A DNA stretch of 63,187 nt, the filler included, from Nitrospinota bacterium (lineage in GTDB: Bacteria; JAUXIQ01): the NCBI GenBank assembly GCA_030620925.1. It is 9 parts of 9 records of this genome, joined end to end, with 100 filler letters (N's around TTAATTAATTAA, not from the genome) between each part and the next. Parts side by side here need not be neighbours in the genome. Positions count along the whole stretch, not along the records: positions 47,089 to 55,985 come from JAUXIQ010000059.1; 8 more parts are not named here. One strand, written 5' to 3'. The notes beneath the pieces are model-generated. The model was not told where the DNA came from. It worked only from the letters and a program-made list of their open reading frames with translations, and searched no databases. A program made the position numbers and the translations under genes. Of the stretch, positions 50,841 through 53,800 are shown piece after piece (position 1 is the first letter of the stretch; each line of letters begins with the position of its first letter).

Positions 50841-53800
50841 ATGAATAAGCCAAAGGTTTCTTTTGGCAGTGATAACAGTCCGAGGAGAGATTTCTCTCGT
50901 ATACCGGCGATAGTCGATATCCCCAACCTCATAGAAGTGCAGAAAAACTCTTACGAAGCTTTTCTGCAGAGCGAGAAGAAGCCGAATGAGAGGGATGAAG
51001 CCGGGTTGGAAAACGTGTTTCAAAGCGTTTTCCCTATTACGGATTATAACGAGACGGCCTCACTGGAGTACGTGGGCTATGAGGTGGGCATCTGGGAGTG
51101 CGACTGCGGGGAATACAAGGAGCTGGGCGGGCCCGGAATAGCTTGCGAAGTCTGCAGGAAAGAGGTCGTATACAAGCAGAAGTACGACGTCGATGAGTGC
51201 AGGCAGAAGGGGCTCACCTACGGCGACCCATTGAGGGTGATGGTCAGGCTTATAGTGTTTGAGGAAAACGAAGGTGAAGGCCCTAAAGACATAAAAGATA
51301 TAAAGGAGCACAAGGTTTATCTGGGGGAAATCCCATTCATGACCGTAAAGGGTACTTTCATCATCAACGGCACCGAGAGAGTTATCGTGAGCCAGATGCA
51401 TCGCTCTCCGGGGGTTTTCTTCAGCCAGGAGAAAGGGAAGAGCCACCATACCGGGAGATTTGTCTTCTCTTCCAGGCTGATACCCTACAGGGGCTCGTGG
51501 GTGGATTTCGAGTTCGATACCAAGGACGTACTTCACGTGCGAATAGACAGGAGGCGTAAATTCCCGGCCACAATCCTGCTTAAAGCGTACGGTCTGACTT
51601 CCACCCAGATCCTCGAAACCTTTTACGACTGCCAGGAGATAAAGTATCACCCCAAAAAAAAGGAATTCTCTTTAAGAATATCAGATCTGGCACAGAAGCA
51701 GAAAGTCCTCAGCGAGTCCAAGGAGGAGAGGGCCAGGGCCCGCGCCGCGGAGAGCACCCTGGATCAGCTTCAGAAGCTCAGGTCGCAGGGTTTGAGGGAA
51801 CTTACGGTAAAGGAAGAAGAGCTTCATGGGAAAATATTGGCGGAAGATGTCGTAGATGAGTCCACCGGGGAGGTAATCCTGGAAGCCAACGCGGAGATCA
51901 CTGCCGATAAAATAGATGAAATGAAGGAGAAGGGTATAAAGGGAATTAACATCCTGGATTTGGATATGGCCAATATGGATACCTCCATGAGAGACACCCT
52001 GCTCCAGGATAAAACCCTCAACCAGGAAGAGGCATTGACAGAAATCTATAAACGCCTCAGGCCGGGCGACCTGCCCACCGTCGAAACAGCCAGAACCCTT
52101 TTCATCAACATGTTCAACAATCCTAAACGATACGATCTCTCCAGGATAGGAAGGCTCAAGCTGAACCGCAAGCTGGGACTCGATTTCCCCTTGGAAGAAA
52201 GGTACCTCAGGGTTGAAGACGTTGCCGGGGTGATGAAATACCTCGTCATGTTGAGACAGGGCCAGGGCCAGGTGGATGATATAGATCACCTGGGCAACCG
52301 CAGGGTAAGGTCCGTAGGGGAACTTCTGGAGAATCAGTTCAGAGTGGGTATGATGAGGATGGAGAGGGCTATCAAAGAACGCATGAGCATACAGAACCTG
52401 GACACGGCCGTCCCTCACGACCTCATCAACTCTAAACCGGTGACTGCGGCTGTAAAGGAATTTTTCGGCAGCAGCCAGCTATCCCAGTTCATGGACCAGA
52501 CGAACCCCCTCTCCGAGATCACGCACAAACGGAGGCTGAGCGCCCTGGGGCCCGGAGGGTTGACCAGGGAGAGGGCGGGCTTCGAAGTGAGGGACGTACA
52601 CCCCAGCCACTACGGCCGAATATGCCCCATCGAGACGCCCGAGGGACCCAACATAGGGCTAATCTCCTCTCTGAGCACATACGCCCGTGTAAACGAGTTC
52701 GGGTTCATCGAATCGCCCTACCGCAAAGTCAGCGCCGGGAAAGTCTCCGAAGAGGTCGACTTCCTTTCCGCAGACGAGGAGGTTCAGTACGTCATAGCTC
52801 AGGCCAATGCTCCCGTGGACGAGAAGGGGAAGCTTTCCGCCGAGCTCATATCCTGCCGAAAGGGCGGGGATTTCATCATGGCGCCCCCCCAGGAAGTGAA
52901 TTACATGGACATTTCCCCCAAGCAGCTTGTAAGCGTGTCGGCTTCGCTGATCCCATTTCTGGAGCACGACGACGCCAACCGCGCACTCATGGGTTCAAAT
53001 ATGCAGCGGCAGGCGGTCCCCCTGCTCAGGACGGAGTCACCCCTGGTAGGGACGGGCATGGAATACGTCGCCGCTCGCGACTCGGGTGCGACCGTGCTGG
53101 CTGAAAACGATGGCGAGGTGATATTCGTGGATGCCACCAGGATAGTGGTCCGTACGCAGAAGAAGAAGGAGAATGCTGACGGATATTCGGGGGTGGACAT
53201 CTATCCTCTCACCAAGTATCAGCGCTCCAACCAGAATACCAGCGTAAACCAGAAGCCGGTGGTCCAGGTGGGGCAAAAGGTCAAAAAAGGGCAGGTAGTG
53301 GCAGATGGTCCCGCCACCGAACATGGCGAACTGGCCCTTGGCAGGAACGTACTGGTGGCCTTCATGCCCTGGTTGGGTTATAACTTCGAGGACGCAGTGG
53401 TTATAAGCGAGAAAGTCGTCAAAGAGGATATTTATACCTCTATCCACATACAGGAGTTCGAGGTAGAGGCCAGAGACACGAAACAAGGCAAGGAAGAGAT
53501 CACCAGGGATATCCCAAACGTCGGAGAAGATGCCCTGAAGAACCTGGATGAGAGCGGGATTATCAGGATGGGCGCCAACGTGAACCCGGGAGATATCCTG
53601 GTGGGTAAAGTGACCCCTAAAGGCGAGACACAGTTGAGCCCTGAGGAGAAGCTGCTCAAGGCCATTTTTGGGGATAAGGCGGGTGACGTGAGAGATTCCT
53701 CCCTCACTCTTCCACCCGGAGTGGAAGGGGTGGTTATGGACGTTAAGGTCTTTAACAGGAGAGGCGTGGATAGGGATTCCAGGACTCACGCAATTGAGAA

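What the first reader, a model, noticed from the sequence alone, without database searches (positions are those of the whole stretch)
51090..51179. RpoB carries a charge-reversed copy of the RpoC zinc-binding domain
Seen: between LEYVGYEVG and [14 protein letters not shown], where standard RpoB has only about 2-3 residues, there is a 30-aa insert [30 protein letters not shown]. Its core aligns without gaps to the RpoC zinc-binding domain in the same operon (55217-55291, [25 protein letters not shown]). 13 of 25 residues are identical, all four Cys share the same spacing, and the first 27 nt are 24/27 identical. The basic face of the RpoC domain (net about +3) becomes acidic in the RpoB copy (net about -3). 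Known: the beta' zinc-binding domain lies near the promoter spacer and RNA exit channel and is contacted by sigma and antitermination factors. Inference: an intra-operon domain duplication gave this polymerase a second, acidic zinc knuckle on beta, perhaps a factor-binding surface or decoy. I recall Cys-rich inserts at this site in some phyla, so the insert may be catalogued even if its origin is not.
Basis: partly seen in the sequence, partly recalled or inferred. Interest (0 to 1): 0.8.

Follow-up and report, generated by a model that had tools for sequence, protein, structure and literature searches.

The report
Beta-prime zinc ribbon copy inside RpoB
The RNA polymerase beta subunit of this Nitrospinota-like bacterium carries a small four-cysteine insert that is an old, widely shared copy of the zinc-binding domain of the neighbouring beta-prime subunit; its job is still unknown.

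Summary
RpoB (50841-54896) has a 30-residue Cys4 insert at 51090-51179, where solved beta subunits have 3 residues.

The insert is specifically related to the beta-prime zinc-binding domain (ZBD), not to generic zinc ribbons:
- All 60 listed PDB hits are beta-prime/gamma ZBDs.
- hhalign gives 98% probability, E 8e-14.
- In whole-genome searches, every listed match was in rpoB or rpoC.

It is not recent:
- The same insert sits at this site in five GTDB phyla around Nitrospinota.
- Related inserts occur in Acidobacteriota and Aquificota.
- DNA identity is what the two peptides and codon usage predict.
- There is no sign of gene conversion.

The charge reversal holds here but not in all lineages. 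33 of 98 relatives have lost the cysteines yet keep the insert. Contigs from four studies bridge it without indels.

Function is inferred: a structural or docking knob on the beta1 lobe. The scan reached the same reading twice before on other genomes.

The parts
50841..54896 (+). rpoB, RNA polymerase beta subunit, 1351 aa, complete
   Evidence: ORF and translation. Pfam finds RNA_pol_Rpb2_1/2/3/45/6/7, E 1e-142 to 2e-23.
51090..51179 (+). 30-residue Cys4 insert (residues 84-113) in the beta1 lobe (protrusion); a paralogue of the beta-prime ZBD
   Evidence: AF2 pLDDT is 85-90 over residues 81-120.
51099..51107 (+). First zinc knuckle, C87-D-C89 (CxC)
   Evidence: Sequence. C5 and C7 are invariant in the 21-sequence alignment A4.
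51108..51143 (+). Loop [12 protein letters not shown] between the knuckles. The G-[ED]-[YF]..LGG.G[VI] pattern is kept even in relatives that lost the cysteines.
   Evidence: Alignment A4 and the 98-locus table.
51144..51155 (+). Second zinc knuckle, C102-E-V-C105 (CxxC)
   Evidence: Sequence. C20 and C23 are invariant in A4.
51297..51305 (+). I153-K154-E155, aligned with the IKE strand of the beta1 lobe that binds the Mfd and CarD RID domains in other bacteria (context, not part of the insert)
   Evidence: HMMER alignment to solved beta chains. Role of IKE from PMC3001067, passages read.
55007..55985 (+). rpoC, beta-prime subunit; only the N-terminal ~326 residues, cut by the contig end and N spacer
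   Evidence: Pfam RNA_pol_Rpb1_1, E 3e-74.
55217..55291 (+). Beta-prime zinc-binding domain [25 protein letters not shown], the canonical counterpart of the insert
   Evidence: Same position as the ZBD in the solved beta-prime chains hit.

Best explanation
Shown: the insert is a paralogous copy of the beta-prime N-terminal zinc-binding domain. It is embedded in a hairpin of the beta1 lobe (protrusion) of RpoB, where it replaces 3 residues. The copy was made long ago, before the radiation of Nitrospinota and several neighbouring phyla, and has since been inherited as part of rpoB under purifying selection.

Inferred (about 50% for this functional reading): it folds as a small zinc ribbon in which the metal only staples two beta-hairpins. 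That would explain why many lineages replaced the four Cys while keeping the length and the loop G-[ED]-[YF]..LGG.G[VI]. Having lost the basic, nucleic-acid-facing loop of the ZBD, it most likely acts as a solvent-exposed structural knob or protein-docking surface. [quoted passage not shown] It is probably not a second nucleic-acid-binding ZBD or a decoy.
For: Homology
- phmmer of the 37-aa stretch against 177,635 PDB sequences: 72 hits at E <= 10. The 60 listed are all bacterial beta-prime/gamma chains at the ZBD position, best E 0.0024.
- Insert-only profile (21 sequences): 86 hits, the 60 listed again all beta-prime/gamma, best E 3e-5.
- hhalign of the insert profile against a ZBD profile: probability 98.1%, E 7.9e-14, 28 columns.
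- Whole-genome six-frame searches with the insert-plus-flank profile:
  - 5 of 5 genomes gave exactly two matches, rpoB and the rpoC ZBD (query positions 10-38, E 5e-8 to 3e-5).
  - The rpoC ZBD was the second match in 17 of 18 genomes.
  - 105 of 120 genomes matched; 90 of those had exactly two matches.
  - The extra matches in three-match genomes lie in rpoB itself or in a second rpoB.
- Generic zinc-ribbon Pfam families: none for the window's insert at E <= 10. No family hits more than 4 of 21 inserts; best E 0.0036.

Age and selection
- The insert is present at the same site in 18/18, 105/120, 2/2, 48/51 and 32/33 genomes of five GTDB phyla.
- Related inserts occur in Acidobacteriota and Aquificota RpoBs.
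- Mean column identity of the insert is 76%, against 75% for whole RpoB.

Zinc dispensable
- 65 of 98 loci keep CxC...CxxC; 33 have lost it but keep the length and the loop.

Fold and location
- AF2 pLDDT is 85-90 in context and 87.9 for the insert alone.
- Location in the beta1 lobe comes from the alignment to 3mlq_A and 4xax_A, named 'beta domain 1'.
- The role of that lobe comes from PMC3001067 and PMC4593161, passages read.

Not an artefact
- Contigs of 4 runs from 4 studies bridge the insert with no indels.
Against: - No experiment or solved structure bears on function. None of the 28 solved beta chains matched has the insert.
- I had no model coordinates, so whether the knob faces solvent, DNA, sigma or the Mfd/CarD edge is inferred, not seen.
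- Structure search alone does not single out the ZBD. Foldseek gave 44 matches, none at E <= 0.001; ranks 1-12 are beta-prime at E 2.0-3.9. The sequence-blind VIA search gave only 9 chains at Z 2.0-2.5, all generic ribbons and no beta-prime.
- In several lineages the insert is basic (+2 to +4), so a nucleic-acid contact is not excluded there.
- The direction of copying (beta-prime to beta) rests on distribution only: the ZBD is universal and the insert is patchy.
- 53 matches, and the hits beyond the 60 listed, were not shown to me.
Confidence: 0.75

Rival explanations
1. The insert is an unrelated, generic zinc ribbon that resembles the ZBD only through convergence on common knuckle motifs.
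For: - The fold is a generic zinc ribbon. VIA finds aaRS, Nob1 and TFIIB-type ribbons at Z 2.0-2.5 and no beta-prime.
- Foldseek E-values are not significant.
- A few Pfam ribbon families touch 1-4 of 21 inserts at E 0.004-0.07.
Against: - Identity extends well beyond the ligands (W, E, G, Y, K, G, E, E, V). 0 of 200,000 shuffles with Cys fixed reach the observed score.
- All 60 listed PDB hits are ZBDs, in both searches.
- In the whole genomes searched, every listed match lay in rpoB or rpoC and none in another zinc-ribbon protein.
- hhalign E is 7.9e-14.
Confidence: 0.04
2. The insert is a recent intra-operon duplication, or is kept similar to rpoC by gene conversion, as the 24/27 nt identity suggests.
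For: - 24/27 nt identity in the window is the highest of 18 genome pairs (range 16-24).
- It is marginally above the codon-usage expectation (P = 0.047).
Against: - Over 75 nt, 45 identities were observed against 43.8 +/- 2.3 expected.
- Inserts are no closer to their own ZBD DNA than to other genomes' ZBD DNA (43.3 against 41.3 +/- 4.2).
- The insert is orthologous across five phyla and carries its own conserved signature (E after CG; LGG.G) that is absent from ZBDs.
Confidence: 0.03
3. The insert is a functional second ZBD: a nucleic-acid- or sigma-contacting zinc jaw on the beta1 side of the upstream fork, opposite the beta-prime ZBD.
For: - The beta1 lobe lies near the upstream part of the bubble (PMC4593161, passage read).
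- Inserts are basic (+2 to +4) in one whole phylum, in part of another, and in Acidobacteriota.
- The module has been copied again into the beta lobe in two genomes, and it is doubled in Acidobacteriota.
Against: - In the window and most Nitrospinota the module is acidic (-2 to -7).
- The basic ZBD loop KYKRMKHRG is replaced by EYKELGGPG.
- The ligands are dispensable in 33 of 98 loci.
- No geometry is available.
Confidence: 0.15
4. The insert is an assembly chimera that joins rpoC sequence into rpoB.
For: - The window is a concatenation of short MAG contigs.
- The two genes are adjacent.
Against: - Contigs from 4 runs of 4 studies span the insert and both flanks with 0 gaps. For example, one 1393-nt contig covers 50841-51638 with 7 substitutions.
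- The insert is in frame and only 45/75 nt identical to rpoC.
- It is found in more than 200 independent genomes.
Confidence: 0.01

Closest known systems
N-terminal zinc-binding domain (ZBD) of bacterial RNA polymerase beta-prime (Cys4; E. coli C70/C72/C85/C88, numbering recalled)
   Same: - Same CxC-x12-CxxC spacing.
- 13/25 identities in the window and up to 16/25 in relatives.
- Reciprocal profile similarity.
- Predicted zinc-ribbon fold.
   Different: - It sits in beta (beta1 lobe), not in the beta-prime clamp at the RNA exit channel (PMC8632103, passages read).
- The loop between the knuckles is acidic and Gly-rich (EYKELGGPG) instead of basic (KYKRMKHRG).
- The ligands are dispensable in many lineages, whereas every ZBD I extracted kept its Cys.
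Lineage-specific inserts of bacterial RNAP beta (the beta-i nomenclature of Lane and Darst 2010, as used in PMC2939025)
   Same: - An insertion between conserved beta regions.
- Restricted to certain phyla.
- Apparently peripheral.
   Different: - The described large inserts are BBM2/BEAN-type domains of 50-190 residues. This one is a 30-residue zinc ribbon derived from the other large subunit.
- I could not check whether it carries a beta-i number, because the Lane and Darst papers are not held.
- PMC11515920 (BEAN/HABAS) has 0 occurrences of zinc, ribbon or cysteine.
Zinc (C+) and zinc-less (C-) forms of small ribbon-containing proteins, e.g. ribosomal protein S4 (PMC3087516, search listing only; the general concept is recalled)
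   Same: The same module exists with and without its four Cys in related organisms, and length is retained.
   Different: Here the module is an internal insert of RpoB, not a free-standing protein. No link to zinc supply was tested.

Membership tests
Beta-prime ZBD homologues (paralogue, not orthologue) | CxC-x12-CxxC ligand pattern | tested here: met
   C87, C89, C102 and C105 align without gaps to the four ZBD Cys.
Beta-prime ZBD homologues (paralogue, not orthologue) | Significant, specific sequence similarity to ZBD profiles beyond the ligands | tested here: met
   - all 60 listed PDB hits are ZBDs, best E 3e-5.
- hhalign 98.1%, E 7.9e-14.
- ZBD HMM scores the window's insert at 25.5 bits.
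- every listed whole-genome match lies in rpoB or rpoC.
- shuffle control.
Beta-prime ZBD homologues (paralogue, not orthologue) | Position in the beta-prime N-terminus (clamp, RNA exit channel) | tested here: not met
   It lies in RpoB residues 84-113, in the beta1 lobe.
Beta-prime ZBD homologues (paralogue, not orthologue) | Basic loop between the knuckles | tested here: not met
   Net -3 against +3 over 25 residues in the window. Lineage-dependent elsewhere, -7 to +4.
Beta-prime ZBD homologues (paralogue, not orthologue) | Binds one zinc ion | not testable with these tools
   Only inferred from the four Cys and the predicted ribbon.
Lineage-specific inserts of RNAP beta | Extra residues between regions shared by all bacterial beta subunits | tested here: met
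   28 extra residues relative to solved beta chains, with the match split into two stretches.
Lineage-specific inserts of RNAP beta | Confined to particular lineages | tested here: met
   - Present in five GTDB phyla around Nitrospinota.
- Related forms in Acidobacteriota and Aquificota.
- Absent from the proteobacterial, myxococcal and Bacillota loci L029-L080, which match the C-terminal flank only.
Lineage-specific inserts of RNAP beta | Listed under a beta-i number in the published catalogue | not tested
   Lane and Darst 2010 (PMC2813377, PMC2813324) are not held. Their supplements could not be seen either.
Generic zinc ribbons (Pfam ribbon families) | Match to a curated ribbon model | tested here: not met
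   0 families for the window's insert at E <= 10. At most 4 of 21 inserts touch any one family; best E 0.0036.
Generic zinc ribbons (Pfam ribbon families) | Two-knuckle, three-stranded ribbon fold | tested here: inconclusive
   - The AF2 model has strands 2-5, 8-10 and 28-30 at pLDDT 87.9.
- VIA Z is 2.0-2.5 to ribbons of aaRS, Nob1 and TFIIB-type chains.
- Foldseek has no match at E <= 0.001.

The most novel reading that the evidence does not exclude
The beta-prime ZBD is a recurrently copied mini-domain within the RNA polymerase genes. It went from beta-prime into the beta1 lobe in an ancestor of several phyla. It acquired a second, generic ribbon beside it in Acidobacteriota, and it was copied again from the beta1 site into the beta lobe in two Nitrospinota genomes.

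On this reading the beta1 copy is a working surface of the enzyme. It would be a second zinc 'jaw' facing the upstream fork or promoter spacer in lineages where it is basic. Where it is acidic, as here, it would be a docking site for a basic lineage-specific factor or sigma region. These polymerases would then have an initiation or repair-coupling contact that model bacteria lack.
Probability: 0.15. Interest if true: 0.7.

Novelty: new variant of a known kind. Interest (0 to 1): 0.45.

Why it matters
Lineage-specific inserts are where bacterial RNA polymerases differ in regulation. Most described inserts are large BBM2/SBHM-type domains.

Here a piece of one catalytic subunit, the beta-prime ZBD, has been copied into the other. 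It lands on the lobe that Mfd and CarD use and that borders the upstream fork. It is kept across several phyla, including the main marine nitrite oxidisers (Nitrospina).

This gives three things:
- A clean example of domain exchange between beta-prime and beta.
- A natural series of zinc and zinc-less forms for studying how ribbons lose their metal.
- A defined target (about 30 residues) for structural and deletion work on a polymerase family with no solved structure.

The practical impact is modest until a function is shown.

Tried and rejected
Structure and family searches that did not discriminate
- Structure search of the isolated 32-aa model. Foldseek against PDB gave 44 matches, none at E <= 0.001. 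VIA-align wide gave 9 of 48,161 chains at Z >= 2, best 2.5, with no beta-prime among them. The domain is too small for structure alone to decide.
- Pfam on the insert gave nothing usable.

Searches with limited reach
- The word-indexed protein search with residues 70-125 returned only RpoBs (51 of 62 candidates). No RpoC appeared, probably because no exact 5-residue word is shared. I drew no conclusion from that.
- The representative-library search also returned five repeat proteins (P0055, P0061, P0062, P0103, P0112). They score through many weak repeats. I rejected them as spurious after reading them.

Dead ends
- No whole genome is held for the window, so own-genome controls were replaced by relatives' genomes.
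- No RNA holder was listed among the sequencing runs, so nothing can be said on expression.
- One contig in run X1 skips 51200-51354 with a 23-nt side. This is outside the insert, and the tool flags such joints as often coming from other organisms, so I ignored it.
- The second half of the script (window insert against other genomes' ZBD DNA) failed on a faulty pattern. One search covers the same question.

Function and partners
- Mfd-size RID proteins are present in 5 of 5 relatives, and a CarD-size one in 1 of 5. This gave no link to the insert.
- I did not run complex prediction. Any beta/beta-prime or beta1/RID pair would pass by likeness to solved structures without locating the insert.

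Literature
- Seven full-text searches found no description of this insert or its origin.
- Passages from PMC11515920, PMC3578206 and PMC2939025 also contain none.
- Lane and Darst 2010 and Iyer et al. 2004 (recalled) could not be read, and supplements are closed. Prior cataloguing remains possible.
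Full report
**What is there**

The window is a string of short contigs joined by paired 44-N spacers. 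The contig of interest is 47089-55985. It carries a run of + strand ORFs upstream in the positions of the usual nusG-rplKAJL gene order (sizes only, these names are inferred and were not tested). It then carries a complete rpoB (50841-54896, 1351 aa) and the first ~326 codons of rpoC from 55007, cut by the contig end.

Residues 84-113 of RpoB (51090-51179) read [30 protein letters not shown]. The rpoC fragment holds the canonical beta-prime zinc-binding domain [25 protein letters not shown] at 55217-55291.
- 13 of 25 residues are identical without gaps, with the same CxC-x12-CxxC spacing.
- 24 of the first 27 nt are identical.
- Net charge is -3 against +3.

HMMER alignments to solved beta subunits break into two stretches around the insert. 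They show 3 residues in E. coli-type chains (76 then 80) where this protein has 31, a net insertion of 28. None of the 28 solved beta chains that matched has it.

**Is the resemblance to the ZBD specific?**

Yes. Five independent lines agree.
- Shuffle control. With the four Cys held in place, 0 of 200,000 shuffles of the insert reach the observed BLOSUM62 score (85, against 19.1 +/- 11.2). 9 of 200,000 reach 13 identities.
- Single-sequence PDB search. The 37-residue stretch against all 177,635 distinct PDB sequences gave 72 hits at E <= 10. The 60 listed are all bacterial beta-prime (or cyanobacterial gamma) chains, matched exactly at their ZBD (best E 0.0024).
- Profile PDB search. A profile of 21 inserts without flanks raised this to E 3e-5, again with only beta-prime/gamma among the 60 listed of 86.
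- Profile-profile comparison. The insert alignment against a ZBD alignment from Nitrospinota, Proteobacteria, Myxococcota and Bacillota gives 98.1% probability, E 7.9e-14 over 28 columns.
- Whole-genome control, the most telling. Six-frame searches with the insert-plus-flank profile gave these results:
  - In 5 of 5 genomes there were exactly two matches, rpoB and, aligned to profile positions 10-38 only, the ZBD of rpoC about 4.2 kb downstream (E 5e-8 to 3e-5 per genome).
  - The same second match appeared in 17 of 18 genomes of one phylum.
  - In Nitrospinota, 105 of 120 genomes matched and 90 of those had exactly two matches (53 matches were not listed).
  - Genomes with three matches were explained by a second module inside rpoB, a second rpoB, or a split contig.
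  - No listed match was in any other zinc-ribbon protein.

Generic ribbon families in Pfam do not recognise the insert. There are 0 families for the window's copy at E <= 10, no family touches more than 4 of 21 inserts, and the best E is 0.0036.

Structure alone cannot decide because the domain is tiny:
- The AF2 models are confident: pLDDT 85-90 in the context of residues 1-620 and 87.9 for the insert alone.
- Foldseek puts beta-prime chains at ranks 1-12, but at E 2.0-3.9.
- The sequence-blind VIA search finds only generic ribbons at Z 2.0-2.5 and no beta-prime.

It is undecidable at the fold level.

**Is it recent?**

No.
- Nearest proteins. The closest proteins in the 5.8-billion-protein collection are all RpoBs with the same insert. 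Where named, they are labelled Nitrospinota, Nitrospinaceae or Candidatus Tectomicrobia (51 of 62 candidates).
- Species genomes. A scan gave 28 loci covering the whole 60-residue query, labelled Nitrospina/Nitrospinota, 'Aquificota' MAGs or just 'bacterium'.
- GTDB phyla. Working outwards from five of those genomes, the insert is present at the same site in 105 of 120, 18 of 18, 2 of 2, 48 of 51 and 32 of 33 genomes of five different GTDB phyla. Misses are in incomplete genomes.
- Other phyla. A full HMMER pass over 1.84 billion representatives (95 hits at E <= 0.001) added RpoBs from further phyla with related inserts at the identical position:
  - Acidobacteriota carry a 63-65-residue version in which a ZBD-like first ribbon is followed by a second CxxC...CxxC ribbon.
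  - Acidobacteriota also have a single-ribbon form.
  - An Aquificota cluster containing Hydrogenivirga has a CxxC variant.
- The window's organism. No whole genome is held for it. Its RpoB N-terminal 620 residues are at best 64% identical to any locus I fetched.
- DNA evidence for a fresh copy dissolves. Over 75 nt the 45 identities equal what the two peptides and rpoB/rpoC codon usage predict (43.8 +/- 2.3). The 24/27 is only marginally high (21.3 +/- 1.4, P = 0.047). Across 18 genomes, inserts are no more like their own rpoC than like other genomes' rpoC (43.3 against 41.3 +/- 4.2 of 75). There is thus no sign of gene conversion.
- Insert-specific signature. The insert has its own conserved features, an acidic residue after CxCG and LGG.G[VI]. 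These are absent from ZBDs.

**Not an artefact**

Logan contigs from four runs of four different studies cover the insert and both flanks with no insertions or deletions. One 1393-nt contig spans 50841-51638 with 7 substitutions. By my own reading of the codons, the substitutions inside the insert are Y to F, I to V, A to V, E to D and one silent change. All Cys codons are kept.

**Two corrections to the picture**

1. Charge reversal is real here but is not a family trait. Over 98 loci the 30-residue insert ranges from -7 to +4.
   - The window's insert is -2 over 30 residues, or -3 over the 25-residue core.
   - Most Nitrospinota-labelled inserts are -2 to -5.
   - One whole phylum is +2 to +4, and another is mixed from -3 to +4.
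   - The ZBD is +3 in every genome examined.
2. The cysteines are dispensable. 65 of 98 loci keep CxC...CxxC. 33 have lost it, including 27 of 30 loci in one phylum and several Nitrospinaceae. These keep the length, the leading Trp and the loop G-[ED]-[YF]..LGG.G[VI]. The rpoC ZBD stays intact in L021 and L024, the two such loci where rpoC was on the same locus. The degenerate forms fall into at least three sequence-distinct types with different flanks. I take this as more than one loss, but I built no tree.

**How it most likely works**

Shown: the insert is a paralogue of the beta-prime ZBD, inserted in the beta1 lobe. It is as conserved as the rest of RpoB (76% against 75% mean column identity).

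The beta1 lobe (Rpb2 protrusion) is a four-stranded sheet. Its edge strand (E. coli I117-K118-E119, here I153-K154-E155 by alignment) binds the RID domains of Mfd and CarD. The lobe lies near the upstream part of the transcription bubble (PMC3001067 and PMC4593161, passages read). The insert emerges at the end of the preceding strand.

From strand topology alone I infer that it sits at the opposite end of the sheet from the IKE site. I had no coordinates to check this.

The canonical ZBD helps form the RNA exit channel and is contacted by NusA (PMC8632103, passages read). That is on the other pincer of the enzyme.

The insert has exchanged the ZBD's basic loop for an acidic, glycine-rich one, and zinc can be lost without losing the module. 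My best reading, at about 50%, is therefore a metal-stapled surface knob that stabilises the lobe or offers a docking surface for a protein partner. A nucleic-acid or sigma contact, most plausible in the basic lineages, gets about 15%. Nothing here tests function.

Relatives encode Mfd-size RID proteins (5 of 5) and a CarD-size one (1 of 5). That gives no discrimination.

**Comparison with what is known, and novelty**

Lineage-specific inserts in beta are a known kind (PMC2939025 and PMC11515920, passages and abstract read). The described ones are BBM2/BEAN-type domains.

- Seven full-text searches and the passages I read contain no description of this insert or of a ZBD origin.
- The catalogue that would list it, Lane and Darst 2010, is not held, and supplements are closed.
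- Aquificae and Acidobacteria genomes existed in 2010. By recall and inference, the insert may well have a beta-i number there.

This scan reached the same reading twice before on other genomes (e1-5056365; e1-1235625). My work agrees with those notes and adds:
- whole-genome specificity controls;
- the five-phylum distribution;
- the count of zinc-less forms;
- the finding that charge reversal is lineage-specific;
- the codon-usage and gene-conversion tests;
- the read bridging;
- a second copy of the module elsewhere in RpoB.

**Verdict**

The feature is real and robust, and its evolutionary origin is clear and rather elegant. It is ancient rather than recent, and its function is unknown. 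It is a new variant of a known kind, of moderate interest.

Noticed in passing
L095/L099 (G028:C81) and L093/L100 (G027:C32): In 2 of 120 Nitrospinota genomes, RpoB carries a second ZBD-like Cys4 module about 300 residues downstream, in the lobe just before LVGKI.AYDVVDE.TG. It has CxC-x14-CxxC spacing. It has an acidic residue after CxCG, like the beta1 insert, so it looks copied from that insert rather than from rpoC.
   Followed up: partly
P0065, P0070, P0104 and relatives: Acidobacteriota RpoBs have a 63-65-residue, eight-Cys double ribbon at the same site. Only the first ribbon aligns to the ZBD over its full length (9-21 bits). The second ribbon is a generic CxxC...CxxC.
   Followed up: partly
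P0143 (1168 aa): An odd single protein from a Logan assembly combines three pieces: an RpoB-like N-terminal piece with an insert-like CxC...CxxC, a partial Rpb2_6 match (E 5.5e-8), and an RpoC N-terminal piece with a ZBD (Rpb1_1, E 6e-12). It is a reduced, fused beta/beta-prime-like protein of unknown meaning.
   Followed up: partly
window 10117-59156 (eight places): The window is a concatenation of contigs joined by paired 44-N runs 12 nt apart. The rpoB contig is 47089-55985, so rpoC is truncated at about residue 326 and what follows is unrelated.
   Followed up: yes
alignment A3, between the equivalents of window residues ~140 and ~150: Most 1400-aa Nitrospinaceae RpoBs have a further insert of about 50 residues in the beta1 loop just before the IKE-like strand. 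The window's 1351-aa RpoB lacks it.
   Followed up: no
L101 (G034:C14): One Nitrospinota-phylum genome holds a second rpoB-rpoC pair whose RpoB has no insert (EEPKYDVEEC) and looks alphaproteobacterial. It is probably bin contamination.
   Followed up: no
P0086 (365 aa): An RpoC N-terminal fragment in which about 170 residues, including the ZBD, occur twice in tandem. It is likely an assembly artefact.
   Followed up: no
window 51200-51354, run X1: One contig joins 51200 to 51354, skipping 153 nt, with only 23 nt on the shorter side. It probably comes from another organism or a conserved stretch.
   Followed up: no
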